Origin: Naegleria gruberi
Taxonomy: Eukaryota
Reading direction: 5' to 3' (one strand)
Assembly (NCBI GenBank): GCA_000004985.1
Contig: GG738866.1
DNA: 64,000 nucleotides
The translations under genes were made by a program, and so were the position numbers. Below the pieces are notes generated by a model. The model made no database searches and had not been told where the DNA came from. It worked only from the letters and a program-made list of their open reading frames with translations. This document shows positions 20,160-57,039 of the stretch, one piece after another; position 1 is the first letter of the stretch; each line of letters begins with the position of its first letter.

Positions 20160-21077
20160 ATGAACAAATTGACAGCCTTCTTCAAACAGCACCAATCGAA
20201 AAGTAACCTCGCCGATGCCACTGATGATTTAGCCTCTGTAGAAATCAGAACAACACCTTCTGCGCAATCACCAACAATAAAAAATACAAAAAATGCGGCA
20301 AACGATAATCGGCATGCAACGACGGAAATTAAGGAAACAAATGATGATAGTAAATTAAATAATGATGATGATGATCACAATGATAAGGATGAGAATGGTC
20401 AGAAGAATGAGATGGTGGAGGAGGATTATTATTGCGGGATTTATATGAAGAAATTAAATATTGATTTGCCGATTGAGTTGGTTATTTTGATTGCTCAATT
20501 TATGGATTTGAAACAATTGTATAATTTTGCAAGGTGTAATAGTAGAACGTTTAAGGTTTTCTTTAATGTTGATAAGAGAGATATTGGAAAGGAGAAGAAT
20601 GAGATGAGAGATGAGAAGGATTTGGATTTTAATAGAGTTCAAGTGCTTGTTTGGAAATTGTTGGCAGTTTCGTATTTTCCAAGAGTGGATCATAACCTCA
20701 ATGTTAAAAATTGGATGCAATTTTTGAGGAAACGAATGAAACATATCAAGGGTAACGGGTACGACTTTAAATTGGATATTCCATCATTTGTAAATTCAAA
20801 TATGGATGAGGAAATTATTGAAAATTGTGAATGGGTCTATAAGTGTCCATTAAGTTATTTCAATTTGAGTGGTGATGAAATAGATGTCAAGTTTTGTAAT
20901 GTTTGTGAAAAGCATGTCTATTTGGTTGACTCTTTGGAATCATTTCGTGAGAGGGTTGGTCGTGGAAATTGTGTTGCATTTACCTCGAAATTGTATCTTT
21001 ATGACGAACCATTAATGGGTGAATGTGTGGCAGATATTGATTATGATACAATACCTTTTGATATTCAAGAGAATTAG
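20160..21077 (+). CDS. F-box-like domain protein with Cys-rich C-terminus
   Basis: ATG at 20160 verified. F-box-like 'LPIELVILIAQFMDLKQLYNFARCNSRTFKVFF'. C-terminal 'CPLSYFNLSGDEIDVKFCNVCEKHVYLV...GNCVAF'. Confidence 0.5.
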   Translation: MNKLTAFFKQHQSKSNLADATDDLASVEIRTTPSAQSPTIKNTKNAANDNRHATTEIKETNDDSKLNNDDDDHNDKDENGQKNEMVEEDYYCGIYMKKLNIDLPIELVILIAQFMDLKQLYNFARCNSRTFKVFFNVDKRDIGKEKNEMRDEKDLDFNRVQVLVWKLLAVSYFPRVDHNLNVKNWMQFLRKRMKHIKGNGYDFKLDIPSFVNSNMDEEIIENCEWVYKCPLSYFNLSGDEIDVKFCNVCEKHVYLVDSLESFRERVGRGNCVAFTSKLYLYDEPLMGECVADIDYDTIPFDIQEN

Positions 21078-25034: not shown

Positions 25035-26255
25035 TTAATTATTCTTGGTTGCTAATGATTTACAAATGGTTAACAAATCAGATTTTTCCACAATGTGAAG
25101 ATCTGGTTGGAGGAAGACACTTTTGTAATTGCTGGCCATGTAATCCAGGGTTGAACGTAAGAAAGTGTGAGATTGATGTTCCTTAGCAGCACTGTAGAAT
25201 ACAAAAATGTTTTCTGATGAAACAACCTTTCTGAAGAGATTGACACAATATTCAGATAATCCTGGTAACATTAATTGATCTGCCAAAACAAATGTTTCAA
25301 TCAAATGACATGGTCTTACATTTGTAAAACTACTGTACATATAATCCAATGCTGCAACTAGGGCAGGGAATGGAGCAAATGTGTCAACTACAATGGTATT
25401 ATTTACAGAGCTATCGATAAGAGTCTTTAAAAATGGAGATCTAGCAGCAAGGATAGCTTTCAAACATTTGATTTCTCTTCCAGAACTCTTATGAACGACA
25501 GTTAAATCAGCATGCAAACCACTCTTCAAAAGACTTCTATAAAATTTGCTAATTTCTGGAACTTCTTCCTTTTGAACACCTCCTTTTCCACAAATTTTGA
25601 CTGCATCAATTTCTGTCCAACCTCCATTCATACTTAAATCAATTCTAATAGCATTAGTTTTAAATCCTTTTACAGTCAATTCTGGAGCAAAATCTCTTGC
25701 TACATGGATACCATTTGTTGCAGGACCAGACCACAAAGTAACCCATTCATTTGAATTTTCACGTCTTCCACTAATTTTAGTAACAGATCCAGGTGTTGAT
25801 GATTCATAAATATGAACACTATAAACAGACATGACATGATCGTAACCCAATTCAATAAATTCAGGTCCTGTAGTATTATTTGGACACCAAGCAGAGCCAC
25901 TTGATGAATAGGTTGGATAGACCCTACAAGGACCTACCACATTATTGGCATGATAAGATGTTGGATCACCTCTTTAGAAAATAACAATGTCAACATTCCA
26001 TACAAACTGAAAAACAACTTACCCCCAGTAAGAGCTATACGAAATCACAGAAGAAGCCCATTGTTCGGAAGGTCCTACATCTTCTTCCTCTTCTTCATCC
26101 TCTTCATCTCCAAATTTATAGTCATCATAATAATCAGGTGCAATATCCTGCACTCTATACTTGCTATTGACCGATGCTGATGATGAACCTTGTTCTTCTT
26201 CGTTAATCAATACAATAGTCGAATCGTTGTTCTCTCTTCTTGGAATTGGGAGCAT
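25035..26255 (-). CDS. Galactose-binding-like (discoidin / F5-8 type C-like) domain + BTB/POZ domain protein; 2 exons
   Basis: ATG at 26255. Exon 1 ends ...SYSSYWG with phase-2 donor GTAAGT at 26022; intron 25972..26022 (51 nt). Exon 2 continues 'GDPTSYHANNVVGPCRVYPTYSSSGSAWCPNN...NAIRIDLSMNGGWTEIDAVKICG' (F5/8C-like ending). BTB 'ADLTVVHKSSGREIKCLKAILAARSPFLKTLIDSSVNNTIVVDTFAPFPALVAALDYMY'. Confidence 0.55.
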
Positions 26256-26505: not shown

Positions 26506-28323
26506 ATGAGAAAACTTGCCTCGTTTCTTGGTGGTGGTAAATCTTCATCATCAAATGGTTCTTCTTCATCACCTTCAGCATCGGGTACTAGTAATGAAAG
26601 AGTTTCATCCAACAAACAGCAAGGTTCCCTTTCTATAGTAACAACATCATCAATTGGTGTTGCCGTTGGTGATTCTTCATCATCTCCATCATCAAATAAT
26701 AATAACAATGGAAGTAAAACTCCAAGAAGTAATTTCTCTAGATCGACTAGTAATACTAAAATTAATTCTTCATCATCCTCTTCATTGGAAAGGAATAATA
26801 TTGAACAGGAAATTCAAAATATAATTTTTAATACTTCACAAATTAATACACTCTCCAAAGTACCTAATGTTCAACCGGAATATTATTTGAAAATTGTTGT
26901 TTTGGGAGGACCATCTGTTGGAAAATCGGCAATAATTAATAGATATTTGAAAAATAAGGATCATCCTGCTTTATCAGTAACAAAGAGTGGATTGTACATA
27001 CCAACAATAGGAGTCGACATGTATAGTAAGCCTGTTAAGAAATATAGAGATGCTTCGATAACAAAATGTAAATCAATTCAATTTCCAGTGAGATTGACGA
27101 TACTAGATGTTCCACATAGTGAATTTATGAAACAATCAGTGTCAAAATATTTTGAAAATGCACATGGAATAGTGTTAGCTTTTGATGTGACTAATATCAA
27201 GTCAATTAGTGCTATTGATCAGTGGCGATCCAAAATTCCATCACATCTCCTTACAAGTACAGTTTTACTTGCCCATAAAGCCGAGTTAAAGCCACACATT
27301 ATCACTCCAAACTCTCTAGATAATTATGTTAGAGATTCTGGATTATTGGCATGGTTTTCAACATCGATTAGAAATTTCCAATCCATCAATGGAGCATTCC
27401 AATACCTTGTCGATAGAAGTCTGTCAAAATTAATCAAAAAATATCAAGGACTGCCTACATTGAATCATCAAATGAATGCTGTCTCAATGGCTAGAAAATC
27501 TTCATCGATTCCATTGGCAGAATCCAAGTCTGATAACTTGGCCGAGTCTCTTCAATATTCCAATTCTGTAGAATCCAATTCTGATACAGGATCTATTTCT
27601 AAGGATGATTCCAAACAAATAGTGGAAGGATTTTCTACTCTCTACGACATGTTGGAGGACAAGAATCCAAATTTAACAATGGAATTTATAGAAAAATTCA
27701 GAAGTGAAATTACATCTTTTTATTTCCAATTATCAAGCAGATTTAAAGAGTTCAAAGTGGTATGTCAGAGTTGTGACACGAGCTCAAACGATCAAAAGTT
27801 GATGGATCTACTGATAAATGAATGTGATGCTGAAAGAATCATTCTCCTTAACAAATTAGCTCTCGTTGAAAAGGAACTTGTAAAGTGTAATAGTATCTAT
27901 ACGGAAAATAATACTCCCATGAAAAATCTCACCAAACTGTACATTGAACTCAAGAGAGAATTTTATATTGTAAAGATTGAAAAATGGATAAGTTTTTGGT
28001 ATTCCTTAAAATCAAGATTTTGCCTGAGTCAAATTTTCTACAAGGACACCAAACAAGATTGTCAACAATTACCAGAGATTTCGGAATCACTCTACAGCCA
28101 ACCTATCAATCAAAATATTGTAGCCAAACTGGAAAGCAGAAGGGCAAAAATTGAAAAACTCAAACAACATTCCAAAATACAATCTAAAGAAATATCTCAG
28201 AAAGAGGATGAAAATCTTGTAGAGAGTGATAGTACATTCTCTGTTATCAATCAAATTTTCAAAGCAGAAATGTATGTGGACATATTCCCTCAATTAACAG
28301 AACTCAATAAATTAAATAAATAG
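26506..28323 (+). CDS. Atypical Ras/Rab-like (likely pseudo-)GTPase domain protein with Ser-rich N-terminus and coiled-coil C-terminus
   Basis: ATG at 26506. P-loop 'KIVVLGGPSVGKSAIINRY'. Switch-I-like 'PTIGVD'. G3 replaced by 'DVPHSE' (no Gly/Gln). NKxD replaced by 'LLAHKAEL'. 605 aa. Confidence 0.5.
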   Translation: MRKLASFLGGGKSSSSNGSSSSPSASGTSNERVSSNKQQGSLSIVTTSSIGVAVGDSSSSPSSNNNNNGSKTPRSNFSRSTSNTKINSSSSSSLERNNIEQEIQNIIFNTSQINTLSKVPNVQPEYYLKIVVLGGPSVGKSAIINRYLKNKDHPALSVTKSGLYIPTIGVDMYSKPVKKYRDASITKCKSIQFPVRLTILDVPHSEFMKQSVSKYFENAHGIVLAFDVTNIKSISAIDQWRSKIPSHLLTSTVLLAHKAELKPHIITPNSLDNYVRDSGLLAWFSTSIRNFQSINGAFQYLVDRSLSKLIKKYQGLPTLNHQMNAVSMARKSSSIPLAESKSDNLAESLQYSNSVESNSDTGSISKDDSKQIVEGFSTLYDMLEDKNPNLTMEFIEKFRSEITSFYFQLSSRFKEFKVVCQSCDTSSNDQKLMDLLINECDAERIILLNKLALVEKELVKCNSIYTENNTPMKNLTKLYIELKREFYIVKIEKWISFWYSLKSRFCLSQIFYKDTKQDCQQLPEISESLYSQPINQNIVAKLESRRAKIEKLKQHSKIQSKEISQKEDENLVESDSTFSVINQIFKAEMYVDIFPQLTELNKLNK

Positions 28324-33627: not shown

Positions 33628-34757
33628 TCAATAAATAAAGTTGTAATACTTGTTTGTTGCAAGTTCTGGTATTTCCTTCAATAGGTCATTCATGTACTTT
33701 CTATTATTCAAATATTTAGGAGCTATAAATTTTTCCAATGACAGATTTTCCTTACACACTTGGTATGCCTTAACGAGTGACATTTTGAAAATTTCCTCAT
33801 CTTCTCTAAACCAAAAAGGAATCTCATAGATATATTTTGTTTTTTGAATGCATCTCTTAACAATTTCTTCATCCTTTCTAAACTCATAAGGAACAAGGAA
33901 TAGTGGCAAATTCATTCCAACTAATTGATATACCAATTCTCTATTTTCTCTCATTACTTTTGGAAGTTCAGAATAGGCAAAGTAGTTTCTCCTAACAACT
34001 TCCTTAACAAATGAGAAATCATGTTGCAATCTCTCACTAATATATCCAACATTATTTGGAGAGGAAATACATGCTGATAGAGCAATCTGTCTATCATCGA
34101 GCATTTCCTTAGGAAGTTTGTAATATAATATTTTCAATTCTCGAATTTTCACATACAATTCCACAACTTGCTTATCATTTAAATATATTTCTGGAAGTTT
34201 GAATTCAAAATTATGGAAATATGAACTAACACTCTTCAGTACTCTCATTACAATATCTCGATCATTCTTCATTTCATCTGAAAACAATTTATAACATCTC
34301 GGACAAGATGTCACAGCTTTAAGACACACCCTCTTATCCTTCTTCAATTCATCACTCAAATGTACATAAAAGTAACCAAATTGTGAAACTGCTCTAATAG
34401 CAATTCGAATACTATTTCTCAATCGTTCAGAAATTTGCAAAAAAGTGTTTTCACACCTAATAAACCTCAACATGTGCCAAGCCACCAACTCATTATCCAC
34501 ATATTCTTTCGGAATCGTATAGTATCGAGGTAATTTCTTATAAGTATGCTTTCGGAATGATTTTAAAAATTCATACGATTTCTCATAATCATGCAAAAAT
34601 CGTTCCGATGCTTGTTTCCAAATGTTTTTCAATAGATTGGAAAGATTATCTGAATCAGAATGTGTATACTCATCATGATCATTTTTATTTGATCGGGTTG
34701 TGGTGGTGGTGGTGGTGGGCGGTGATGGGAGAAAATCATAGAGAATGAGTTGGACCA
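33628..34757 (-). CDS. DUF4116-repeat protein
   Basis: First true ATG at 34757 (track start at 34803 is ATT). Repeats 'ELKKDKRVCLKAVTSCPRCYKLFSDEMKNDRDIVMRVLKS', 'LDDRQIALSACISSPNNVGYISERLQHDFSFVKEVVRRNYFAYSELPKVMRENRELVYQLV'. Poly-Thr tract near N-terminus. Confidence 0.55.
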
Positions 34758-35118
34758 TTTTTTTTTGTAATGCAACTCGAATTTGCACTTTATATTGTGT
34801 CAATATTTATTTGAAACAATTTAAAGTCAAATGTGTTTTTGGTGTGAAAATCAATTTTTTGATTACCATTGATTCTGATAATGTTTAGTATTTTGAAATG
34901 GAAAAGGTTTATGGAGTGATACATGGAATGGTATTAGAATCTTGTGATTGGAATTTCATGAATTGTTACTCACAATTTCTTTCTTGCAAGTTCACACTTC
35001 TCACAGATTTATACTAGAAAGTTGAACCAACAGGTATTAATACATAATTTACATCTATCCCTCTTTAAAAATCATCCCTCAAAAACAACCAACCCAATCA
35101 AATACTTTACAAAAAAAA

Positions 35119-36043
35119 ATGAAACAAGATCAATGCACTGTTGCTCCTTCACCATCATCCTTGTGTGAAAGTGGTGGATTGTTTCCTGCAGAAATTTGGG
35201 TCCACATTCTTTCCTATCTACCTTCACCGTATATTCCGAATAGTGAGAATAATTCCGATCAAGAATTCAGAAAACAAGTTTTGGAATGGAATCAACTGAG
35301 AGAGAAATCATCCTCTATTTATTATGCTTGTAAATTTGCTATAATGGAGATGGATTTATCTTCATGGTTTCGTATGGATTTGAAAGAAATTGAGACGGCT
35401 TCCAAGTCAATTATACTACCTGGAGTAAAGAGAATAACTTATGAGGAAAATTTTCAAAAGAGATTTTCCAAAGAGAAAGGAGTTAATCCAATTTAATGCA
35501 ACTCAAATGGGTAAGATAATGATGAGACAGGAAAGTGCGTTTCAAATTATCTTGAATGGATTGGCTAATGGTTTTGCAAATGTGAAAAAGTTAAATCTCG
35601 ATGGATGGTACTTTTTGAAAGAGGAAGAATTGCAGAAAATTTGTGAAAATTTGAAATGTTTGGAGAGTTTATCCATTGTCAAATGTCAGAGAATTAGGGA
35701 TTTGGAATTGAGTAAGATTTCTAATCTGAATAATTTGAGAATTCACATCAATCAAATCAAATTAAGAATTAATATTGAAAGGAAAACAAGACAACAAAAT
35801 TTCAACATTGATATAGTTGATGGATTTTCCTTATTTTTCAAAACTTTGGATGGTTTTGGATTTTCAGAGCAATATCATTATTTATACTTTATTAAGGATA
35901 TGAAACCCTTATTGGAAAAGAGAATGGGAGTTTCATGGGAGAAGATTCGGTTCATCTTTGCTGGAAAGGAAATTGAGAATGAAAGAAGATTTGCTGATTA
36001 CTGTGTCTGCAAGGATAGTACCGTGCACGTTATTAAAAGGTAG
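35119..36043 (+). CDS. F-box / LRR / C-terminal ubiquitin-like domain protein; 2 exons
   Basis: ATG at 35119. F-box 'LFPAEIWVHILSYLPSP'. ORFs 35119..35496 and 35441..36043 overlap in different frames; a 49-nt phase-0 intron 35425..35473 (GTAAAG...CCAAAG) joins them: ...SIILPG|RKELIQFNATQMGKIMMRQESAF.... C-terminus 'MKPLLEKRMGVSWEKIRFIFAGKEIENERRFADYCVCKDSTVHVIKR' matches the ubiquitin fold pattern. Confidence 0.5.
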
Positions 36044-36148: not shown

Positions 36149-38099
36149 ATGAACTCCCATATCACCACTCTCATTCTCGTCGATTTCAAAATTGACACGA
36201 TCAACAACCAACTGCACAACTTGTTGAGGAATAAATTTTCCAATCAACAAAAAGGAAGACTTGTCTATTTAGAAAACAGAGAAAAATCATACAATTTTAT
36301 TCCGATAGAATTTACCAGAGATTTGGCATTTGTTTTGAAAATATTGGAAAGATTGAACGAGTATAATTCGTGTTGTACATTTGAAGAGTTGCTCAATCAT
36401 ATTCCGAATGGAATTTTACAAAATCCCAAAAGTTATTGCAAAATTATGTCAAATTTACATTGAAAAGTTTGGTTGTTTGGGAAATCAGTGGAATAATTTC
36501 ACACAATTATTTGCAAATAATAGAGAAATGGTCCTTGAAATTCTCAAATTGAATCCAAGTGCACTTCGATTTGTGTCGGCTGAATTTCAGAATGATTATG
36601 AGATTGTAATGACTGCTGTGAAAGTGAATGGATTTTCATTGAAATATGCTTCAGATATATTGAAGGGAAATAGACAAGTTGTAACTCAAGCTGTGATGAC
36701 TGATGGATTTGCACTTGATTTTGCATCTAGTGAATTGATGAATGATATAGATTTACAGAAAATGGCTATTCGAAACAATCCTAATATGTTTTCATGTCTT
36801 GTGAACAAGCTAACCATTTTTGAAATTGAAAATGAAGTTCTTGAACTTGCTCTTCATTTACATGGAAAATCCCTAGCTCTAATTCCAAACACTTTTCACA
36901 ATTACAGAGATCTTGTTTTACTAGCTGTCAAGAATGATGGTAAAGCTCTTTCACATGCCACAGAAACTTTGAAAGCAGATAGAGAAATTGTATGGGAAGC
37001 TGTATCTCAGAATGGCTTTGCATTATTCTATGCCTCTCCTGAACTCAAGAAGGATAGAGAAATTATTCTAAAAGCTCTAGAAACTTCGAGCACTTGCTAC
37101 CTCTCCTTGCCGATTGATTTTCAAGAAGATTTGGAAATTATTCAGCAAACTCTTCGGTATTTCCCCAATGCTCTTCAATTTATTCGTTCCACAAATTTGG
37201 ATATCCAATTCCTCACTTCTGTGGTAGAGAAAAATCCTCTCCTACTTAAGTATGCGTCTAGAGTGCGTAAGGATAAGAATTTAGTATTGAAATCAGTTGA
37301 ATTGGATGGCAATAATCTTCAGTATGCTGATTCGGAATTGAGACAAGATCCTGAATTGATCTTGAAAGCAGCTCAGCAAAATATTAAATCACTCGTATTT
37401 GCCAAAAATATGGGAAAGGAGCTCTTAATAGAGTTATCTGAAATGAATGGATTTTTACTTGATTATGTATGGAATCAACTTGGAGAATTAAAGACAGACA
37501 GAGATTTTATAATAGCCTGTCTCAAAAGAAATGGAAGGAACTTTATAGTTCTCGATCAATCAATGAGGGATGATAGAGAAATACTCAATATTGCATTAGA
37601 AACTTTTGGAACAGCCCTATACTATTCTGATAAGAGGTTTAGATATGAGTATGAGATGGTAAAGAAGGCGGTTCGAGATAGTCCCGATATTCATACCTCC
37701 ATTCCACGAGTTGTTATTGACAGAGAAATTGTCAAAACGATTCTTTCTGTAAAGGGGATTTTGTTTCATGAATTTTACAGGTTTAATAATGATATTGAGC
37801 TTGTCATGACAGCCGTCAAACAAAATGGGAAGAGTTTTAAATATGCCAGTGAAAATATAGTAAGGGATCCAGAGGTGCAGACGCTAGTTGTAAAAGAAAG
37901 TGGGTTTTGCTTTCAACCAAATGCAGAACTATTTCAATCACGAATGGAACATTGTTACTTTGGTGCTTATCAATATGAACATTTACCATTCTATCCATTC
38001 AATAATTATCCAATGGAATATTTCTACAGTTACAACACATACAATTCAGAAGTTAGATTACCAGATTACAGTGAACTTTTAAAACCTTTACAAAAATAA
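36149..38099 (+). CDS. DUF4116-repeat protein (more than 10 repeats); probably 2 exons
   Basis: ORFs 36149..36463 and 36381..38099 overlap in different frames. A phase-1 58-nt intron 36375..36432 (GTACAT...CCAAAAG) or a 97-nt intron 36371..36467 would join them. Repeats 'AEFQNDYEIVMTAVKVNGFSLKYASDILKGNRQVVTQAVMTDGFALDFASSELMNDIDL', 'LKADREIVWEAVSQNGFALFYASPELKKDREIILKA', among others. Confidence 0.5.
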
Positions 38100-39133: not shown

Positions 39134-39751
39134 TCATCCTTGAATGGATTTAACTTTTTTGTTTTGTGAATTGGAAATTTCAGTTGAATAATCAGTTTTC
39201 AATCTTTGAAGCCATTTTAGAATGTGGCTGAAATGACTAAAGTCTTGTGTTACTCCATGGATTCTATCCAGTCTCATTCGAAATGTTTCTAATTTCCGAT
39301 GGTTTGTGTAATTTGGATCTACTAAGAGATTTAAATAATTGCATGACATTGAACTATCCGAAAATTCACAAGTGCTAATGAACAGAGAGGCACTATTCAT
39401 CATGGAAATAAAATTCGAAACCTTTAGTTTACCCATCCTTCCATCATTTGCCAACTCTTTTCCTTTCTTTTCTCTATATATCAAATAACATGCTCCTGCA
39501 ATTCTACTCCATAATTCAAGGATTGGAACATATAATTCACTATCACCCACTAAAATATCATAAAACATTCGTTTTGAAATTAGAATATAATTTTGTAATT
39601 CTTCAAATGCTGAAAGAAATACAAGTTTTGATGATTTGTTGGTGAGTAGCTCTATGGGAATGATAAATTTCAAGATTTGTAATCTCATTTCAGATGGCAA
39701 GTCCAGTAAAGTTTGTTGATCTGAAAAATCTTCCATTTCAATTATCGACAT
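39134..39751 (-). CDS. F-box-like protein
   Basis: ATG at 39751 verified. 'LLDLPSEMRLQILKFIIPIELLTN'. 205 aa. Confidence 0.45.
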   Translation of the reverse strand: MSIIEMEDFSDQQTLLDLPSEMRLQILKFIIPIELLTNKSSKLVFLSAFEELQNYILISKRMFYDILVGDSELYVPILELWSRIAGACYLIYREKKGKELANDGRMGKLKVSNFISMMNSASLFISTCEFSDSSMSCNYLNLLVDPNYTNHRKLETFRMRLDRIHGVTQDFSHFSHILKWLQRLKTDYSTEISNSQNKKVKSIQG

Positions 39752-42930: not shown

Positions 42931-44058
42931 ATGTTTCATTCCATCTTCTCATATTTGTGGTGGATTTTCCCAACCCGATCCGAAAATCTTTATGCATCTT
43001 TATTGAAGAATAGCATTGATGAGAATGACTTCAAAGCAGGAATATTGGAAAGTCTCTCATTGGATATTGTGATCGAGATTATATCCTTTCTCGATCGGTT
43101 TGAATTTATCAGATTGTTTTCAGGAGTGAATAAATCCTTCTATTCATTAACAGAGGATAAAAGATTCTGGTTAATATTAGACCGTCATGATGAGAAAATT
43201 CCTACTGTTACACAACCAAATTCAAACTTCCAACCAATACTATGTTTTTCAAGAATTGAAGAATATCTCAAATCTTCTGAAAAGACAAGTTTCAAAACCA
43301 TTTACAAGAACCTTCTCCTCTCCCCTACCCCACACGAATTGAATCCAGTCTTTAAAAATCGTTCTGCAATTTATAATGTTGACACAGATCTCATTCCTGA
43401 AACAAAGAAATATATTGCCCTCTTTGGACAATCAAATTCTGGAAAATATTCTCTGGGAATTTGCTCTACGAGAGGTTATTCAAGGCCTAGTGATCAGAAG
43501 AGTGTTATCAAGATGGATTTCTTCTTCAAAAGAGTACTGATCAAGATGGAAAATCTATCCTCTCATCATAATGGAAATATTAGTGGAATATGCCATACGA
43601 ATTTTGTAATTGAATGTTTTGGACATCCTGATTTTCATTTGAAATTTAGAAATAATGGAATGGTTAGCATGAATAGTTTATCACTGGGTAGTAGTCTTTC
43701 AATCATGTTTACAATTGATTTATCAGTGAAAAATAATTATTTTCTCTCTGATTTATCCAAAATTTTGAATCCTTTATTTCAAGTTGATATTTCCAAAGAT
43801 TCTCCTCAGAAAATTAGAAAGAAAATGGGTAATAATAGACTCTGTATAATTGGAACCAAGAGTGATATTAGACAATTGAGTGAACAATCTCTGGCAAGTC
43901 AACTGATGAAAGTTATTGACACAAGTTGTGAATTTTGGGATCAATCCATCATTTACATTGAAACAAGTTCCAAAAATCGTGAAAATATGGATCATCCCTA
44001 TCTATTCTTTTCTCAATCCAACATTCATTCCCAAATCCAACCAAACTCATCCCTGTAA
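42931..44058 (+). CDS. F-box protein with degenerate P-loop GTPase-like domain
   Basis: ATG at 42931. F-box 'LDIVIEIISFLDRFEFIRLFSGVNKSFYSL'. P-loop-like 'ALFGQSNSGKYSLG'. 'CIIGTKSD' in the NKxD position. 'ETSSKN' in the SAK position. No DxxG. Confidence 0.5.
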   Translation: MFHSIFSYLWWIFPTRSENLYASLLKNSIDENDFKAGILESLSLDIVIEIISFLDRFEFIRLFSGVNKSFYSLTEDKRFWLILDRHDEKIPTVTQPNSNFQPILCFSRIEEYLKSSEKTSFKTIYKNLLLSPTPHELNPVFKNRSAIYNVDTDLIPETKKYIALFGQSNSGKYSLGICSTRGYSRPSDQKSVIKMDFFFKRVLIKMENLSSHHNGNISGICHTNFVIECFGHPDFHLKFRNNGMVSMNSLSLGSSLSIMFTIDLSVKNNYFLSDLSKILNPLFQVDISKDSPQKIRKKMGNNRLCIIGTKSDIRQLSEQSLASQLMKVIDTSCEFWDQSIIYIETSSKNRENMDHPYLFFSQSNIHSQIQPNSSL

Positions 44059-46969: not shown

Positions 46970-47764
46970 TCGAATAGTTTCGGGTTAGAAATGTGTTGAG
47001 TTTTTTTCTGCACTTTGTTTTTTAGCTAACAAGTGCAAAGTGACAGATGGGTTTTTTTCTGGTAGTGTTCCACTAAATGGTTCTTTGATGAGTGGAACTA
47101 AGCTTGATGATGATCACGTGATGTGCTGCAAAGTTGTGTGTAATTTTTTTTAAAGTTTCTTTCTTCTACTTTCTGCTAGTTTCCAATAGTTACAATCATG
47201 ACAATCCAGAATGGAAATTCAATGGTTTTCAAATTAGCCGAACAGTCTTTTGCTTGCCATATTTTTTAAATAATTCAATATTTTGGTTTTGTTTGTTCAA
47301 ATTTGGTGGCTTCTTATCTTGTTGATATCATCAAGACTTTACAAAATATTGATAATTGTTCAATGCACAGTTTCAGTTTTAGAAAGTTTGCTTTCGTTCT
47401 CTTTGAACTGGAAGTGTACTTATTGGAAATCAAGTTTAGAATTGAAAATATTTATTGGAAACCACAATCCTGTACGAAACCAAAGATTATTTATGAATTA
47501 AAACATTTTTCTTAATGGAGAGTTGATCTGAAAATAAGGAACTTAACTGCAAATTATTCCATAGCTGGGGGAAACTCTGGTCAAGGTGTTGAATGGTTTC
47601 TGATATTTTTGAAGTTTAGTTTTAATTATTTTAATGTTTCTTTTTAATTGGTTATTGTGGATTCTTTTGGAAATTGGTCGAATTGGGTTTATTATAATAG
47701 CATTTTGAAGTTAAGTTTGTGAAATAGTATTGGAACTAATGAACTTGTCAATTAGTGAAAAAAA

Positions 47765-48795
47765 ATGTCAAAACTTGAAAAACTTTCCTTTCAATTTTTT
47801 GATAAATTACCAGAAGAAATTTTGAGTGAAATTGGGAATTTTCTATTGCTTGGTGAATTTCACAAGTGGATGTTGGTGAATCGAATAGTATATCAGAAAC
47901 TTTGTTCCGATGCTTGTTATTCGAAATTTTATTGGAGGGAAATTAAGTATCATTGCAATGCAGATGAGAAGAAATATGTAATTTACAATCCAGTAACTTT
48001 AGAATATCACTCTAATGTGCATTCACTTTATTCTATTTATGGAAAAGTTTCGTCTAATTTTCGATATCATCTCTTGCAGTTTAAAAAGGAAATTTCGAAT
48101 AACAAACCCAACTTTTCATTCACTCCCATTGAGAACATGATGGAAATCAATCCAAAACTCCAAAAATCATTAGAAAAAGATGAATTTCCAGGATATGGAA
48201 AGATTTGCCTTATTGGAAACTCAACATGTGGCAAAACTTCACTTTATTGGAGAGTTCATACTCGAGAATTTCAAGAAACTTTTTGGTATACTTCAGATAA
48301 TCCCAATTTAGTGTATGAAAATTTTCTGATGTCATTGTGGGACCTTCCCTGTAGAGATGGGTAAGTTTCGTTTTATTTAGAATATTTTGAGATTAATCTC
48401 AATCAAGATATGATCAATTGAGAACTTTGTCGTATCCAGAAGCACACTTGGCTCTCGCTTGCTTTTCACTTGTGGACAGAGATTCATTCGATTCTATTCG
48501 AAACAAGTGGATTCATGAATTGAGATTCCACTTGAAAGATACTCCAATTATTCTGGTTGGTTGTAAACATGATTTAAGAGAAGAAATCATCAAATCATCA
48601 ACACATCAAGATAACCAATCAATTGTAACAAGTGAGGAAGCAGAGGAATTCGCCAAAAGTTTCGGATTTATATCCTATTGGGAGAATTCCTCTAAAAGTG
48701 GATTTGGGATGAAGAATTTTATGGAAATTTTAGTAAATGGGTGCACCTATCAACCGAATATTGTAAAACCAAAGAAAAAGTGTTTAATTCAATAA
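47765..48795 (+). CDS. F-box + Rho-family small GTPase fusion protein; 2 exons
   Basis: ATG at 47765. F-box 'LPEEILSEIGNFLLLGEFHKWMLVNRIVYQKL'. G1 'KICLIGNSTCGKTSL'. Exon 1 ends WDLPCRDG + phase-2 GTAAGT at 48362; 46-nt intron 48362..48407 joins in frame to 'YDQLRTLSYPEAHLALACFSLVDRDSFDSIRNKWIHELRFHLKDTPIILVGCKHDLRE...ENSSKSG'. Co-linear with Rho '[28 protein letters not shown]...PIILVGTKLDLRD...ECSA'. Confidence 0.65.
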
Positions 48796-48880: not shown

Positions 48881-49732
48881 ATGTCACCACACAATGATTA
48901 CACTACCATTCCAATAGAAGAATCAGAGATTAATTTACATTACTCACAAACTAATTCTTCCGAAACATTAAATTCATCATTATTAAATCTCCCGCCAGAA
49001 TTATTAACATTAATTATTGAATATTTATCAAATGATAATGTTGCACTGCTGTCATTCGAATTACTCGGAATAACTGCACGAGAAGTAATGAATAATCAAG
49101 TGTGGGAAAAATTATTTAGAAATCAACAAATTTCGTCCAAGTTTTTGGGTTTCGACTGGTTTATTTTACCGAATCAGTATCTTGTTGAACTGGTCAAGAG
49201 AAAATCAGAAAATCCACACAAAATTGCATTTTATTATCATTTCTACATGAATGGAATTATTACACAATTTCTAGATTATGAAATTTCGGATATAATTTAC
49301 AATTTCAGATATTCGAATAGAAGTAACGTATTTCAAATTGAAAAATCATTAATCCCATTAAGGAAATATTTTGAAGAAATGAATAGGTTTCATTTCTATT
49401 CAAATAGAAGACCAATTAATATTTTACTTTACAAAACTCAATTAGAAATTGAAATGAAACGTTGGATTAATTTCAAGAAGAAACCAGGCGAAATACTTCA
49501 CCAATACCGTCGCCACACCTATACCTCTTGCTTTATCCTCCTAGTAGTAAGCCCAATTATTGGAATTGGCTCTTTAGGAATGATTTTGGTTGGTGGAATT
49601 AGTTTCAAATATCCAACGTTTAATTCAGAACTTGGCGCCATCTCACTCATCATTATTGGATGTTTCATTTTGTTGATATCAGTTGTGGGATTACTTGTTT
49701 CAACCAAGTACATTTGTTCTTACAGAGATTAA
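48881..49732 (+). CDS. F-box protein with C-terminal double transmembrane tail
   Basis: ATG at 48881. F-box 'LPPELLTLIIEYLSNDNVALLSFELLGITAREVMNNQVWEKLF'. C-terminal 'FILLVVSPIIGIGSLGMILVGGISF...AISLIIIGCFILLISVVGLLV'. Confidence 0.5.
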   Translation: MSPHNDYTTIPIEESEINLHYSQTNSSETLNSSLLNLPPELLTLIIEYLSNDNVALLSFELLGITAREVMNNQVWEKLFRNQQISSKFLGFDWFILPNQYLVELVKRKSENPHKIAFYYHFYMNGIITQFLDYEISDIIYNFRYSNRSNVFQIEKSLIPLRKYFEEMNRFHFYSNRRPINILLYKTQLEIEMKRWINFKKKPGEILHQYRRHTYTSCFILLVVSPIIGIGSLGMILVGGISFKYPTFNSELGAISLIIIGCFILLISVVGLLVSTKYICSYRD

Positions 49733-51641: not shown

Positions 51642-52610
51642 CTATTTTACAAGTGGTTTGACGATTGGTTTTGTTGGCTTCTTACATGTCTTTCTCTTGA
51701 TACAAATCTTCTTCTTGATTGACTTGCAGCACTTCTTCTTTCCACCAACTAATTTGAATTTCTTACAAATCTTCTTTCCCTTTGAACGTTTCAAACACTT
51801 CTTATAATACTTCTTCTTGATACATCTTGGAGGAATGACAATTGACTTGGCACAATACTTCTTCTTGTTATATTTGACACATTTGGAGAGAGTCTTCTTG
51901 TGTTTACAGAATTTGATGGTCTTATGCTTGGCGCAGAAGAATTTCTTCTTAATGAGACAACACTTCTTGAAAGATTTTCTTTCCTTGCAGTATTTAACCT
52001 TCTTATACTTGGCACATTTCTTTGCCCAGGAGACAATCTTGCACTTTTTAACATATCTACATTTGGCAACCTTCTTATTGTAAGAATCAACAGTGTACTT
52101 GTCGCAGACCTTCTTCTTTTCACACTTCTTGATTGGAACCTTCTTGAATTTCTTACAGACCTTCTTGAAACCCTTCTTGAAGCACTTATTGATAATCTTG
52201 TGCTTGGCACAGAACTTCTTGAAACCCTTCTTGATGCAAATCTTCTTAGTTCCATAAGAATCACAAACTTTCCAATACTTCTTCTTGGCACATCCAACAA
52301 TCTTGTATGCATGCAAGACACACTTCTTTGTTGGCTTACTGTACTTGTCACATTTGGAATATTTCTTATGTTTAAGACATTTACCAGCACCGACAATTGC
52401 ATATTGATCACAGACCTTCTTTTGACCAACGAGTTTGTGTTTCAAACACTTCTTAATCCACTTGTGCTTTAAACATTTTCTCTTACAAATTCTTGGCTTG
52501 TGATACTTGTCAACTACTGGAGGATTGGTTTGATAGCTGTCACTTGCTTGAACTGAAAGGATTGCAAGCAAGAGTAGAATTGCAATTGAAAAGATTAGAT
52601 TTGCTTTCAT
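51642..52610 (-). CDS. Secreted, extremely Lys/Cys-rich repeat protein (about one-third Lys, about one-eighth Cys)
   Basis: ATG at 52610 ('MKANLIFSIAILLLLAILSVQASDS', signal peptide), TAA at 51642. Body is a degenerate tandem of about 9-10-aa units with KC(L/A)KHK, CxKK and KKxC spacing. Other-frame ORFs 51791..52429, 51817..52083, 51900..52472 are shadows of this repetitive DNA. Confidence 0.55.
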   Translation of the reverse strand: MKANLIFSIAILLLLAILSVQASDSYQTNPPVVDKYHKPRICKRKCLKHKWIKKCLKHKLVGQKKVCDQYAIVGAGKCLKHKKYSKCDKYSKPTKKCVLHAYKIVGCAKKKYWKVCDSYGTKKICIKKGFKKFCAKHKIINKCFKKGFKKVCKKFKKVPIKKCEKKKVCDKYTVDSYNKKVAKCRYVKKCKIVSWAKKCAKYKKVKYCKERKSFKKCCLIKKKFFCAKHKTIKFCKHKKTLSKCVKYNKKKYCAKSIVIPPRCIKKKYYKKCLKRSKGKKICKKFKLVGGKKKCCKSIKKKICIKRKTCKKPTKPIVKPLVK

Positions 52611-53011
52611 TTTTTGTTTTTGTTGGATTGGATAGTTCAACCAGATGGTGCTAATTTAAACCATTTCGAATTGTTTTTCATTTGGGACAAGCTGAAAATA
52701 GTTGGATGTAAGGTTCCAAATTTGGATAGAAAACTGATTCAATTTACTATTCAAATATCAACTCAGCTTTCCAAAGTATTCTACTTAATTCATGTATTCG
52801 AATTTCATGAGAGAATACTGTTAAATGTTTAACAGAGAACATTTGATATTGTTTTGTGACCAATCGACAGTCTGGTTTTTTCAGTCATTTGTAAAAAAAT
52901 AGTCATTAAGAACAAGAAAATTCTAGGCATGGAGGATAATTTTTTATTTTTATGAAAATTGTTGGATAAATGATAATGAATTAATTGAGGAATGAAGAGT
53001 TTATGAGATTG

Positions 53012-54605: not shown

Positions 54606-55817
54606 TCACTGGAATAGTTTTTTAAATACATCTATTAATTTTGAAAGCATATGAAGTGAATAATCGAGTAGATCATCGTGCACCTGCTCAATCTTTCTGT
54701 AATTGAAATTTTTTAGATGGGAGAATGAATGTTGAGAAATTGAGCAATGAAATCTACGAATATCATCTGCAGAGCTCAATTCAAATTGTAATTCTCTCAA
54801 ATTCTTGAAAACTTGCTTGCCTATCAGAATTTTAACATGATTCAATCTTAGTAGAACATTTCCAAACCTTAATACTTTTAACTGCTCTAAATTGTCCAAT
54901 TGATTGAGGAAAAGTTCAATAGATGTATAATTATTAGATACATTATATAAATTTTCAAGAGTAATTTCCTTCAATTTGGAAAATTTTGAATTACAAATAG
55001 TTTCCAATATTTGTAAATTAATATGATATGATAACTTCAATATTTCAATATTAGAACACAATTCAGACATTAGAGTATTTACAATTGATAAATCGCTATA
55101 AATATTGGCCAGTGATAATTTTTTAAGGTTTCCAAAATTGGAAAATGTATCTGAATTATTCCATTCATGAATAATACATGAATTCAAAGATAAACTTTCA
55201 ATATTTTTGAAACATTCTTTCTCTGATAATGATGATGAACTAAGCATAAAACTTCCAAGTTCCAGACGTTTTAAACTTGCTAAATAAGGACTATCAAACA
55301 TTTCAATATCGAAATAATGCTCTCCATAAACTTCATCTGAAATTATCAAAGTTTCAAGATTTTTCATTCGACTTCCAACAATCAATTCAATTCCGCACAT
55401 TGGATTTCTCCAATATTGATCATATGGATCGTGTGTTCTTAATTCCAAATAGTTCAATTCGAAAGTTTCAACAATCATTTTCAACAGTTTCGTATGAGTT
55501 GAATATCCAATGATTGTAACTCCTCTCACATTTCTACAATTCTCTCCTTTCAATTTTTCAATCCACTTATCGACAATTCTTTCGTCAACATCTTGTACTT
55601 CGCTATCGAACCAAACATACGAATCTTCCACATTAATCGTTAAAAACAGTGGAATTTTCAAAGAATGTGAGTACCAATTCTTATTCACACGATTACAATT
55701 TTTCAAAATTTGCTCTCCGCTCATGTAATTTAATATTAAATTTAATATTAAATCATCAAAAATTGCATCACCGGATTCAGGTGAACATTTCATGATGTAT
55801 GTTTTCATTTTTTCCAT
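54606..55817 (-). CDS. F-box / LRR (FBXL-like) protein
   Basis: ATG at 55817 verified. F-box 'AIFDDLILNLILNYMSGEQILKNCNRVNKNWYSHS'. Following L-rich repeats 'LKKLSLANIYSDLSIVNTLMSELCSNIEILKLSYHINLQILETICNSKFSKLKEITLENL'. Confidence 0.55.
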   Translation of the reverse strand: MEKMKTYIMKCSPESGDAIFDDLILNLILNYMSGEQILKNCNRVNKNWYSHSLKIPLFLTINVEDSYVWFDSEVQDVDERIVDKWIEKLKGENCRNVRGVTIIGYSTHTKLLKMIVETFELNYLELRTHDPYDQYWRNPMCGIELIVGSRMKNLETLIISDEVYGEHYFDIEMFDSPYLASLKRLELGSFMLSSSSLSEKECFKNIESLSLNSCIIHEWNNSDTFSNFGNLKKLSLANIYSDLSIVNTLMSELCSNIEILKLSYHINLQILETICNSKFSKLKEITLENLYNVSNNYTSIELFLNQLDNLEQLKVLRFGNVLLRLNHVKILIGKQVFKNLRELQFELSSADDIRRFHCSISQHSFSHLKNFNYRKIEQVHDDLLDYSLHMLSKLIDVFKKLFQ

Positions 55818-55881: not shown

Positions 55882-57039
55882 TTAATCACTGAAACATACA
55901 CTAGCGTGATATTCATAGAATTGATAAAGAACTACTTCGAAGGGATTTTCCATATTGTTGGGATTGACAATTAAGGAAATAATATAGCTATCAATGGCAT
56001 CACCTAAAAGTTGTGAATTGAAGGATCGTTCAACTTTCATAAATGTTGTGTAACTTGTAATGTTTGGATCTTCATTCCATTTCGCCTTTGTATTTTCATT
56101 AAATTCGTCCAAAATTTCCAAAGTGTTCAAGTTATAAGGACAACATTCAGCAATGTTATCGTAAAATGTAATTCGATGAAGATCATGCACATAGTAATTG
56201 ATTCGAAATAGAAAGTTCAACATCATTTGAAGAAGGTATTGATTGTGTAAAATTCCACATTCATGACATGTCAAAACTAGTTCTCTAATCCAATGAATGA
56301 AATTTTTAGCACCTTTCATTTGGTTTCCATTGGAAGGGGCAACTTCAAATTGATTATACGAAAGGCAAATTACATTTCTCACTAAATTGTGTTCGTATGA
56401 AGTGTCATCATTGGGGATGCCAACGAGCTCTGTACAATTCTCATTATGGTAGAAACCCTCTTCCAACTTTTGAATGAGAATATATTCAGAACGATTCTTT
56501 TTGTTTCTTCCTGTAAACAGTTGGTCAGCTGAGGAAAATTTTAATCCCAAATGATTACTATATCCTTCGTCATCACATTCCTGATGCCAAACCATTGAAT
56601 AATCTGCAAAATAATTTAAATTACCTATCTCTACATCCTTAGAATTATTCCTCTTGGTCACATTAATGCAATCACAAAGTATCCACTTGCTCATTTGAAA
56701 AATCTTATCATTTTCTATATTGAATGAAGGTTTACATTTGTAAAACTTGAATTCATAACGAGGAATCATCATTCCTTCATTAATAGCTGCAACACATTTA
56801 GAAAGAAACACAATAAATGGCATTGCACGTTGGTAATCAATCAAATGATGATCAATCTTCAAGTTTTCTGAGTGAGAATTATTCAAACTCTTGTTTAAAT
56901 GTTGAAAGTACAAATAAAAGTGTTTTGTAATTAAATCTCTCCATTCTGTGCACACGAATTTGCAATTTAAAATTTGTTTCCATGATAAATAGCCATCAAA
57001 TAGAATGGTCAGCAGAATGTCCTGATTGTTGGCTATCAT
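55882..57039 (-). CDS. F-box-like protein with Cys/His-rich body
   Basis: ATG at 57039 verified. 'DILLTILFDGYLSWKQILNCKFVCTEWRDLITKHFY'. 385 aa. Confidence 0.5.
   Translation of the reverse strand: MIANNQDILLTILFDGYLSWKQILNCKFVCTEWRDLITKHFYLYFQHLNKSLNNSHSENLKIDHHLIDYQRAMPFIVFLSKCVAAINEGMMIPRYEFKFYKCKPSFNIENDKIFQMSKWILCDCINVTKRNNSKDVEIGNLNYFADYSMVWHQECDDEGYSNHLGLKFSSADQLFTGRNKKNRSEYILIQKLEEGFYHNENCTELVGIPNDDTSYEHNLVRNVICLSYNQFEVAPSNGNQMKGAKNFIHWIRELVLTCHECGILHNQYLLQMMLNFLFRINYYVHDLHRITFYDNIAECCPYNLNTLEILDEFNENTKAKWNEDPNITSYTTFMKVERSFNSQLLGDAIDSYIISLIVNPNNMENPFEVVLYQFYEYHASVCFSD

What the first reader, a model, noticed from the sequence alone, without database searches (positions are those of the whole stretch)
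47765..48795. F-box domain fused to a Rho-family GTPase whose G3 motif is WDLPCRDG instead of WDTAGQE
The N-terminal F-box ('LPEEILSEIGNFLL...') predicts assembly into an SCF ubiquitin ligase. The C-terminal half is clearly a Rho GTPase (P-loop GNSTCGKTS, 'YDQLRTLSYPEAH', 'PIILVGCKHDL', SAK-like 'ENSSKSG'), joined across a 46-nt phase-2 intron I verified. The DTAGQ box is replaced by DLPCR, so both the glycine and the catalytic glutamine are lost. This predicts either a GTP-locked or a nucleotide-independent module. An F-box-GTPase fusion would let a small G-domain act as the substrate-recruiting arm of an E3 ligase, or be regulated by its own ligase. I do not recognise this architecture as a described Rho subfamily (RhoBTB carries BTB, not F-box).
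Basis: partly seen in the sequence, partly recalled or inferred. Interest (0 to 1): 0.7.

Follow-up and report, generated by a model that had tools for sequence, protein, structure and literature searches.

The report
Catalogued Naegleria F-box–Rac, GTPase-dead motifs
This is a real Naegleria gruberi gene for a lipid-anchored Rho/Rac-type GTPase that carries a divergent N-terminal F-box and has lost the residues needed to hydrolyse GTP, but F-box–GTPase fusions in Naegleria, and this exact gene model, were already catalogued in 2021, so it is an uncharacterised member of a known family.

Summary
The window is Naegleria gruberi NEG-M. The gene is exon 1 47765-48360, a 47-nt GT..AG intron at 48361-48407, and exon 2 48408-48795, giving 327 aa.

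The C-terminal half is a Rho/Rac G-domain (Pfam Ras 2.9e-25; best PDB matches are Rho1 and Rac1). It has a Rho-insert-length region and a polybasic CAAX tail (CLIQ). G1, G4 and G5 are intact. G3 is DLPCR instead of DTAGQ, and the Gly12 position is Ser.

The N-terminus gives no direct F-box HMM hit. It is nevertheless an F-box by homology. It aligns without gaps to the Pfam-positive F-box of its sister paralogue XP_002676320.1 (43% identity end to end). The family profile hits only F-box proteins in the PDB.

A second strain, found in a metagenome, keeps the intron, DLPCR and CAAX, with dN/dS of about 0.12.

The novelty claim fails. Herman et al. 2021 (BMC Biol 19:142, supplement) describe F-box fusions to Rab, Rho, Ran and Gα in Naegleria, and list this exact 327-aa sequence as a corrected "Rac" model. 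About half of the sequenced relatives also have a degenerate G3.

The most likely function is a GTPase-deficient, prenylated SCF-linked Rac. This is untested. Interest is low to moderate.

The parts
47756..47758 (+). In-frame TGA immediately upstream of the first ATG. It bounds the long ORF.
   Evidence: Read from the sequence. ATG 47765 is the first start after this stop.
47765..48360 (+). Exon 1: aa 1-198 plus 2 nt of Gly199. It holds the F-box-like domain, the linker and G1-G3 in one ORF.
   Evidence: Identical to Herman 2021 Table S8 sequence XP_002677510.1*.
47798..47920 (+). Divergent F-box (aa 12-52, FDKLPEEILSEIGNFLLLGEFHKWMLVNRIVYQKLCSDACY).
   Evidence: No direct Pfam or PDB hit. It aligns without gaps to Pfam F-box aa 34-74 of paralogue XP_002676320.1 (23.7 bits against a cut-off of 20.5). 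The family profile hits FBXO3 at 7e-9 and Skp2 at 1.5e-6. hhalign of the subclade against bona fide F-boxes gives 89% probability and E 2e-6.
48056..48094 (+). Conserved linker motif N-[FY]-R-x-x-L-x-x-F-K-K-E-I (aa 98-110), shared by the N-terminally extended Naegleria Racs.
   Evidence: Family alignment (N98 and L103 nearly invariant). Function unknown.
48140..48142 (+). Internal ATG (Met126) used as the start by the public 202-aa model EFC44766.1 / XP_002677510.1.
48215..48241 (+). G1 / P-loop GNSTCGKTS (aa 151-159). GxxxxGK[ST] is intact, and the Gly12 position (Ras numbering) is Ser153.
   Evidence: Alignments.
48269..48301 (+). Divergent switch I (FQETFWYTSDN, aa 169-179). Thr176 aligns with Rho1 Thr37. 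The beta2-beta3 region is 5 residues shorter than in Rho1. The paralogue aligns to this region without gaps.
48341..48355 (+). Degenerate G3: DLPCR (aa 193-197) in place of DTAGQ. Asp57 is kept. Gly60 is replaced by Cys and Gln61 by Arg.
   Evidence: Identical in the second strain.
48361..48407 (+). 47-nt phase-2 intron, GTAAGT...AG. An in-frame TAA lies at its 5' end.
   Evidence: Conserved with 1 substitution in L001. The public model uses the same junction.
48408..48795 (+). Exon 2: aa 199-327 plus the TAA stop at 48793-48795.
48562..48573 (+). G4 CKHD (aa 251-254). This is the [NT]KxD motif with Cys in first position, as in the solved RHO1 chains shown (VGCKVDL).
   Evidence: alignments.
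48577..48618 (+). Rho-insert region (REEIIKSSTHQDNQ, aa 256-269), retained in length.
   Evidence: Only a 1-residue gap against Rho1 in this stretch.
48688..48696 (+). G5 SSK (aa 293-295; SAK-type).
48766..48792 (+). Polybasic stretch plus CAAX box (KPKKKCLIQ, aa 319-327). This is a predicted prenylation and membrane anchor.
   Evidence: Cys324 nearly invariant in the family. Kept in the second strain.

Best explanation
The locus is gene NAEGRDRAFT EFC44766 / XP_002677510.1 of Naegleria gruberi. It belongs to a lineage-specific clade of N-terminally extended Rac-like GTPases.

The 327-aa product has four parts: (i) a divergent F-box at aa 12-52; (ii) a conserved linker of about 90 aa; (iii) a Rho-family G-domain; and (iv) a polybasic CAAX tail, CLIQ, where X = Q predicts farnesylation.

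The gene arose by duplication of an F-box-Rac with canonical motifs; the sister is XP_002676320.1. Afterwards it lost Gly12, Gly60 and Gln61 while keeping the P-loop, NKxD-type and SAK-type motifs.

Inferred mechanism. The protein still binds guanine nucleotide but cannot hydrolyse GTP or be switched off by a GAP, so it sits permanently 'on' at a membrane, as Rnd and RhoH do. Its F-box couples it to Skp1-Cul1. Through that link, either effectors or partners bound by the G-domain are ubiquitinated, or the protein's own level is set by SCF-dependent turnover.

What is shown: the gene structure, the domain homologies, the motif states, purifying selection, and prior cataloguing. What is inferred: nucleotide binding without hydrolysis, Skp1 binding, prenylation, and any ubiquitination role.
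For: Organism and locus: four window ORFs are exact matches to N. gruberi proteins. The public model of this gene is named 'rho family small GTPase'.

G-domain: Pfam Ras 2.9e-25 over aa 146-308. The best solved relatives are Rho1 and Rac1, 1e-27 to 1e-25, with the Rho-insert length kept.

Architecture: one ORF spans the F-box-like region through G3. It is 43% identical over 322 aa (E 1e-80) to XP_002676320.1, which has a Pfam F-box above threshold and canonical GDGGAGKT / DTAGQ. The two are sisters in 199 of 200 NJ bootstraps, and this gene sits on the longer branch. G-domain identity to human Rac1 is 33.7% here against 44.6% for the sister.

F-box: the family profile hits only F-box proteins in the PDB, and hhalign gives 89% probability.

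Selection: comparison with a second strain shows 10 synonymous and 5 non-synonymous changes, dN/dS 0.12 in both halves, binomial P 4e-4. Flanking non-coding DNA is about 5% diverged against 1.5% in the CDS.

Motif logic: G1, G4, G5 and the CAAX are conserved, which would not be expected if nucleotide binding and membrane anchoring were dispensable.

Literature: Rnd and RhoH lack Gly12 and/or have an altered G3, are GTPase-deficient and constitutively active, and are controlled by expression and degradation (PMC13236570). Herman et al. 2021 list the gene and propose 'GTPase-dependent ubiquitination' for the F-box and BTB fusions.
Against: There is no direct F-box HMM hit. The conserved Trp of canonical F-boxes is missing, so Skp1 binding may be weak or lost.

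Gly60 to Cys together with Ala59 to Pro could perturb gamma-phosphate sensing so strongly that the domain no longer distinguishes GTP from GDP.

Switch I is highly divergent and the beta2-beta3 region is shortened, so classical Rho effectors and regulators are unlikely partners.

No transcript or protein evidence was available. The public annotation uses the short 202-aa form.

dN/dS rests on only 15 substitutions.

No orthologue outside N. gruberi-like strains was found, so long-term conservation of DLPCR is unknown.
Confidence: 0.6

Rival explanations
1. Nucleotide-free pseudoGTPase. The G-domain no longer binds GTP or GDP and serves only as a static, prenylated protein-interaction module attached to an F-box.
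For: G3 is destroyed (no DxxG), switch I is non-canonical and the beta2-beta3 region is shortened. The branch is faster than the sister's. Many relatives in the clade have even more degenerate motifs, for example GEGN-GVTS and DLS-DIG in ACER01000199.1, and GLPGSGRTS in XP_002671259.1.
Against: GxxxxGKT, CKHD (Lys and Asp kept) and SSK are all intact and unchanged between strains. That pattern is typical of proteins that still bind guanine nucleotide.
Confidence: 0.2
2. The F-box serves self-destruction, not substrate recruitment. The protein is a constitutively active Rac whose abundance is set by SCF-dependent auto-ubiquitination or rapid turnover. This was proposed for TbFRP and is the pattern seen for RhoBTB with Cul3.
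For: GTPase-deficient Rho proteins are generally short-lived and regulated by degradation (PMC13236570). The TbFRP authors link its F-box to rapid proteolysis (PMC3593210).
Against: Nothing in the sequence separates this from the substrate-receptor model, and the two are not exclusive.
Confidence: 0.25
3. Only the short 202-aa protein (start at Met126, the public model) is made. The upstream 125 codons are 5'UTR or a relic, so there is no F-box-GTPase fusion protein.
For: The GenBank/JGI model XP_002677510.1 is 202 aa. The N-terminus alone matches no HMM.
Against: The frame is open from the first ATG after an in-frame TGA, and the chance of no stop over the upstream 123 codons is about 7e-5. 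N-terminal dN/dS is 0.11. The N-terminus is 37% identical to the sister's N-terminus and is also conserved in soil-metagenome protein P0033. Herman et al. manually extended the model.
Confidence: 0.07
4. A decaying pseudogene of the expanded Rac family.
For: Catalytic residues are lost. Herman et al. describe birth-and-death evolution with pseudogenes for the divergent Rab-like clades, and flag several Rac entries as putative pseudogenes. The pseudogene fragment ACER01000494.1 has a similar WNLACRTG motif.
Against: The ORF, splice sites and CAAX are intact in two strains. dN/dS is 0.12. The gene is not flagged as a pseudogene in Table S8.
Confidence: 0.05

Closest known systems
Naegleria F-box-Rac/Rho proteins (Herman et al. 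2021, BMC Biol 19:142, Additional files 4 and 10), e.g. XP_002676320.1
   Same: Same organism and same architecture: F-box, conserved linker, Rho-type G-domain and CAAX. It is 43% identical end to end to XP_002676320.1. This exact sequence is listed in their Table S8 as Rac XP_002677510.1*.
   Different: The table does not flag an F-box for this member. G1 and G3 carry S153 and DLPCR instead of GDGxxGKT and DTAGQ. Degenerate G3 also occurs in about half of the other sequenced clade members.
Rnd1-3 / RhoH (GTPase-deficient atypical Rho proteins of animals)
   Same: Substitutions at the Gly12 and Gln61 positions, with the other nucleotide-binding motifs and the CAAX retained. This predicts constitutive GTP loading and regulation by abundance (alignments).
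   Different: Not orthologous: the gene nests inside a Naegleria-specific clade. It also loses Gly60, has a shortened and divergent switch I, and carries an F-box, which Rnd and RhoH lack.
RhoBTB (Rho domain plus tandem BTB, a Cul3 adaptor)
   Same: An atypical Rho-type G-domain built into a cullin-RING ligase adaptor protein. Naegleria also has RhoBTB.
   Different: The adaptor module is an N-terminal F-box (Cul1/Skp1 type), not C-terminal BTB domains. No BTB hit was found. This protein is prenylated, unlike RhoBTB (own knowledge).
TbFRP (FYVE-F-box-GTPase of Euglenozoa; PMC3593210)
   Same: An F-box placed N-terminal to a Ras-superfamily G-domain in a protist. [quoted passage not shown]
   Different: TbFRP has a FYVE domain and a Rab18-like G-domain. 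Its authors found no orthologue in N. gruberi. The present protein is Rho-like with a CAAX tail.

Membership tests
Rho family of Ras-superfamily small GTPases | Ras-type G-domain detected by HMM, with Rho/Rac/Cdc42 as the closest relatives | tested here: met
   Pfam PF00071 89.2 bits, E 2.9e-25. The top PDB hits are Rho1, Rac1, Cdc42 and RhoA.
Rho family of Ras-superfamily small GTPases | Rho insert between G4 and G5 | tested here: met
   aa 256-269 align to the insert of Rho1 with a single 1-residue gap. The helical conformation was not modelled.
Rho family of Ras-superfamily small GTPases | Canonical G3 DxxGQ (WDTAGQE) and Gly12 | tested here: not met
   DLPCR, and Ser153 at the Gly12 position. 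By descent it is a Rho-family member but a non-canonical, probably non-cycling one.
Rho family of Ras-superfamily small GTPases | G1 GxxxxGK[ST], G4 [NTC]KxD, G5 S[AS]K, C-terminal CAAX | tested here: met
   GNSTCGKT, CKHD, SSK and CLIQ.
F-box domain (PF00646 / PF12937) | Significant match of the protein itself to an F-box HMM | tested here: not met
   No hit at E<=10 with the full protein or with aa 1-141. No phmmer hit in the PDB.
F-box domain (PF00646 / PF12937) | Homology to bona fide F-boxes through family or profile comparison | tested here: met
   Gap-free alignment to the Pfam-positive F-box of the sister paralogue. Profile A1 hits 31 F-box chains, with FBXO3 at 7e-9 and Skp2 at 1.5e-6. 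hhalign of A3 against A4 gives 89% probability and E 2e-6.
F-box domain (PF00646 / PF12937) | Three-helix fold that binds Skp1 | tested here: inconclusive
   The single-sequence AF2 model of aa 1-145 has pLDDT 41.6 and is unusable. Skp1 binding cannot be tested with these tools.
Naegleria N-terminally extended F-box-Rac clade (Herman et al. 2021) | Listed in the authors' curated catalogue, and full-length homology to flagged members | tested here: met
   The exact sequence is in Table S8. E 1e-80 to XP_002676320.1. The clade is recovered in an NJ tree.
GTPase-deficient atypical Rho proteins (Rnd/RhoH type) | Binds GTP but does not hydrolyse it | not testable with these tools
   Only the sequence signature (positions 12, 60, 61 changed; G1, G4, G5 kept) is shown. 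It is not an orthologue of Rnd or RhoH.
RhoBTB | Tandem BTB domains C-terminal to the Rho domain | tested here: not met
   No BTB hit. The protein ends in a CAAX right after the G-domain.
TbFRP (FYVE-F-box-GTPase) | N-terminal FYVE domain and Rab-like G-domain | tested here: not met
   No FYVE hit, and the G-domain is Rho-like. The TbFRP authors found no N. gruberi orthologue.

The most novel reading that the evidence does not exclude
This paralogue may be a permanently GTP-loaded, farnesylated substrate receptor of an SCF ligase. In that reading a Rho-type G-domain, no longer a switch, replaces the usual WD40 or LRR module and targets membrane-proximal Rho effectors or regulators for ubiquitination. 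That would make Naegleria's F-box-GTPase expansion a distinct 'GTPase-gated ubiquitination' system, with some members locked on.
Probability: 0.25. Interest if true: 0.6.

Novelty: already known. Interest (0 to 1): 0.25.

Why it matters
F-box-GTPase fusions would directly link small-GTPase signalling to cullin-RING ubiquitination, and Naegleria has dozens of them across Rab, Rho, Ran and Gα. None has been studied biochemically.

This member and its canonical sister XP_002676320.1 form a natural pair: the same architecture with DTAGQ in one and DLPCR in the other. The pair could be used to ask whether the nucleotide state gates SCF function.

As a discovery, however, the architecture and the gene model are already published. 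The new content here is limited to three points: the F-box assignment for this member, its GTPase-dead signature, and evidence of purifying selection.

Tried and rejected
1. Direct detection of the F-box failed. Pfam at E<=10 on the full protein and on aa 1-141 gave nothing. phmmer of aa 6-61 against the PDB also gave nothing.

2. The AF2 model of aa 1-145 without an alignment had pLDDT 41.6, so it was not used for fold search.

3. An exhaustive HMMER search of exon 1 against 1.84 billion representatives returned four hits. One was the strain variant. One was a soil-metagenome relative, P0033, with a canonical P-loop but truncated before G3. Two were spurious or weak. No orthologue from another named species was found. 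P0033 has no contig on record.

4. The JGI metagenome scan found no relatives.

5. The word-indexed protein searches did not return Naegleria paralogues or N. fowleri orthologues, so conservation of DLPCR across species could not be assessed. The public model surfaced only through a cluster look-up.

6. I tested whether the neighbouring genes form a tandem F-box-GTPase family with this one. They are not close relatives (BLASTP E >= 0.27).

7. The pseudogene hypothesis and the 'two separate genes' hypothesis were both rejected. The grounds are the single ORF, the homology of the N-terminus, and dN/dS.

8. A literature search for Naegleria Skp1 and cullin gave nothing useful.

Full report
**Origin of the window.** The window has 33% G+C and is densely packed with long ORFs. 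Four of these ORFs are exact matches to GenBank proteins of Naegleria gruberi NEG-M on a 469-kb scaffold: EFC44758, EFC44764, EFC44767 and, within one cluster, EFC44768. The finding is therefore a gene of a heterolobosean amoeba.

**Gene structure.** A single ORF runs from the ATG at 47765 to 48364 (199 codons). This ATG is the first after an in-frame TGA at 47756-58. The ORF already contains the F-box-like N-terminus, a linker, the P-loop and WDLPCRDG, so the fusion does not depend on splicing.

The canonical junction is 48360 | GTAAGT..AG (48361-48407, 47 nt, phase 2) | 48408. It yields a 327-aa protein ending KPKKKCLIQ, with the stop at 48793-95.

Across the junction the protein aligns without gaps to Rho1/Rac1 and to its paralogue. 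The public 202-aa model uses the same junction.

**The G-domain.**
- Pfam Ras scores 89.2 bits, E 2.9e-25, over aa 146-308.
- The best solved relatives are fungal Rho1, Rac1, Cdc42 and RhoA, at 1e-27 to 1e-22.
- G1 (GNSTCGKT), G4 (CKHD, like the VGCKVDL of the solved RHO1 chains) and G5 (SSK) are intact.
- The Rho-insert region is kept in length.
- A polybasic CAAX tail is present.
- G3 is DLPCR. Asp57 is kept, Gly60 is Cys and Gln61 is Arg. The Gly12 position is Ser153.
- Switch I is divergent, and the beta2-beta3 region is 5 residues shorter than in Rho1. The sister paralogue aligns to this region without gaps.

**Is the N-terminus an F-box?** On its own it is undetectable. There is no Pfam hit at E<=10 and no phmmer hit in the PDB. 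Three lines of family-level evidence are positive.
1. The protein is 43% identical over 322 aa (E 1e-80) to XP_002676320.1 (sequence from Herman et al., Table S8). The Pfam F-box of that paralogue (aa 34-74, 23.7 bits against a cut-off of 20.5) aligns gap-free with aa 12-52 here.
2. A profile of 15 N-termini of this clade hits F-box proteins almost exclusively in the PDB. FBXO3 scores 7e-9, FBXW21 1e-7 and Skp2 1.5e-6. Beta-TrCP, FBXO31, KDM2A/B, GID2, FBXL5, TIR1 and cyclin F also appear.
3. A subclade alignment was made without any Pfam-positive member: this protein, its strain variant and soil-metagenome protein P0033. Compared with FBXO3, Skp2, FBXW21 and one window F-box, it gives hhalign probability 89% and E 2e-6 over 42 columns.

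I accept a divergent F-box. The LP, EIL, I and FL core positions are present; the usual Trp is not. A single-sequence AF2 model was uninformative (pLDDT 41.6).

**Is the gene real and under selection?** An ENA metagenome contig (ERZ929261, L001; the same contig also appears in Logan as L002) is 97.7% identical over 1.8 kb. It keeps the intron, DLPCR, all G motifs and CLIQ.
- Divergence is about 5% upstream and in the intergenic spacer, but 1.5% in the CDS.
- There are 10 synonymous and 5 non-synonymous changes.
- dN/dS is 0.12 overall, 0.11 in the N-terminal 145 codons and 0.12 in the G-domain.
- The binomial P for so few non-synonymous changes is 4e-4.
- The chance of an open frame over the 123 codons upstream of the internal Met is about 7e-5.

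This argues against a pseudogene and against the short-form-only model. It rests on only 15 substitutions.

**Prior knowledge.** Herman et al. 2021 (BMC Biol 19:142, PMC8296547) analysed Ras-superfamily GTPases of N. fowleri and N. gruberi. [quoted passage not shown] They say this points to 'GTPase-dependent ubiquitination'.

Their Table S8 lists the exact 327-aa sequence as 'Rac', XP_002677510.1*. The asterisk marks a manually corrected model. It has no pseudogene flag and no additional domain listed. At least 14 other N. gruberi Rac entries are flagged F-box.

The GenBank model EFC44766.1 / XP_002677510.1 / D2VEA9, 'rho family small GTPase', is the 202-aa short form starting at Met126.

So the architecture and the gene model are already published. 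What is not stated there, as far as I could find, is the F-box on this member and its GTPase-dead motif set.

**Family context.** I aligned the corrected sequences of N-terminally extended Racs from Table S8. They share four elements: an F-box, a conserved N-[FY]-R-x-x-L-x-x-F-K linker motif, the G-domain and a CAAX.

G3 is degenerate in about half of them. Examples:
- DLGCH in XP_002671259.1
- NLACR in pseudogene fragment ACER01000494.1
- DLS-DIG in ACER01000199.1
- DTAIH in XP_002678060.1
- Others shown in the alignment.

An NJ tree of the G-domains places the extended Racs apart from canonical Racs. This gene is sister to XP_002676320.1 in 199 of 200 bootstraps, on the longer branch. G-domain identity to human Rac1 is 33.7% here against 44.6% for the sister. 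The simplest history is duplication of a canonical-motif F-box-Rac followed by loss of the catalytic residues in this copy.

**Mechanism (inferred).** G1, G4 and G5 are retained while positions 12, 60 and 61 are lost. This is the signature of Rho proteins that bind GTP but do not hydrolyse it. Rnd and RhoH are examples; they are constitutively active and are controlled by abundance and degradation (PMC13236570).

With a CAAX ending in Q (farnesylation; own knowledge) and a polybasic stretch, the protein should sit on a membrane. The F-box would dock it to Skp1-Cul1. That docking would either present G-domain partners for ubiquitination or set the protein's own turnover. The latter was suggested for TbFRP (PMC3593210) and is known for RhoBTB with Cul3 (own knowledge).

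The main rival is a nucleotide-free pseudoGTPase scaffold. None of this is testable with the tools here.

**Searches that did not help.** The exhaustive HMMER search of exon 1 found, beyond the strain variant, only one real relative: P0033 from a soil metagenome, which has a canonical GDGAVGKT P-loop and is truncated before G3. The JGI metagenome scan found nothing. The word-indexed searches did not return other Naegleria species. I therefore cannot say whether DLPCR is conserved beyond N. gruberi-like strains.

**Verdict.** The mechanistic reading is plausible but untested. The novelty claim is wrong. This is an uncharacterised, probably GTPase-deficient member of an already described Naegleria F-box-Rho family.

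Noticed in passing
window 42931-44058 (+): EFC44764 / XP_002677508.1 (UniProt D2VEA6, 'F-box domain-containing protein'). It has a Pfam F-box above threshold (23.5 bits, aa 39-81) and a strongly degenerate GTPase-like C-terminus: Ras E 0.014 over aa 294-357, with GQSNSGKYS, IIGTKSDI and ETSSKN by eye. It is not listed in Herman et al. Table S8, so it may be an overlooked F-box-pseudoGTPase.
   Followed up: partly
window 48881-49732 (+): The immediately downstream gene (283 aa) has a weak F-box (E 0.02-0.5) and, by eye, hydrophobic C-terminal segments that look like transmembrane helices. Its aa 24-50 are 52% identical (E 6e-4) to aa 24-50 of XP_002676320.1, the sister paralogue of the target gene. 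This hints at a shared or shuffled N-terminal F-box module. The exact protein is not in the 15-billion-sequence collection.
   Followed up: partly
window 26506-28323 (+): EFC44758 / XP_002677502.1, a 605-aa 'small GTPase'. It is the entry called 'RabTitan' in Herman et al. Table S8, with orthologues outside Heterolobosea.
   Followed up: no
window 20160-21077 (+), 21108-22976 (+), 39134-39751 (-), 54606-55817 (-), 55882-57039 (-): There is a high density of F-box or F-box-like N-termini within 64 kb. 21108 is F-box plus LRR (F-box 26.1 bits). 20160 and 55882 are sub-threshold F-box. 39134 and 54606 look F-box-like only by eye. A BTB protein (25035-25940, -) and an LRR-ubiquitin fusion (35441-36043, +; ubiquitin 7e-8) are also present.
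   Followed up: partly
window 51642-52640 (-): A 332-aa ORF with an N-terminal hydrophobic segment followed by an extremely Lys/Cys-rich repetitive sequence (KKCLKHK..., CAKHK...). Long ORFs are also open in other frames on both strands, which suggests a low-complexity repeat. Its nature is unknown.
   Followed up: no
window 33628-34803 (-) and 36381-38099 (+): Two ORFs are built of ~30-aa repeats of the type '...D[RK]E[IV][VIL]L.A[VL]..NG.AL.[YF]AS..L..D...'. They resemble the DUF4116-like repeats seen fused to Rab5 in Herman et al. Table S8 ('DUF41'). Not scanned against Pfam here.
   Followed up: no
L001 / L002 (ENA ERZ929261, run ERR1078381, PRJEB11402): A public metagenome contains a Naegleria gruberi-like strain at about 97.7% DNA identity. 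Its variants of at least two F-box-Rac genes (this one, and ACER01000199.1 as P0039) keep their degenerate motifs.
   Followed up: partly
window 47765-48795 (database behaviour): The public model XP_002677510.1 (202 aa) did not appear in any of the three homology searches. It is clustered under the 125-aa metagenomic exon-2 ORF P0036, and it surfaced only through a cluster look-up. Absence from the hit lists of that tool is therefore weak evidence that a gene is unannotated.
   Followed up: yes
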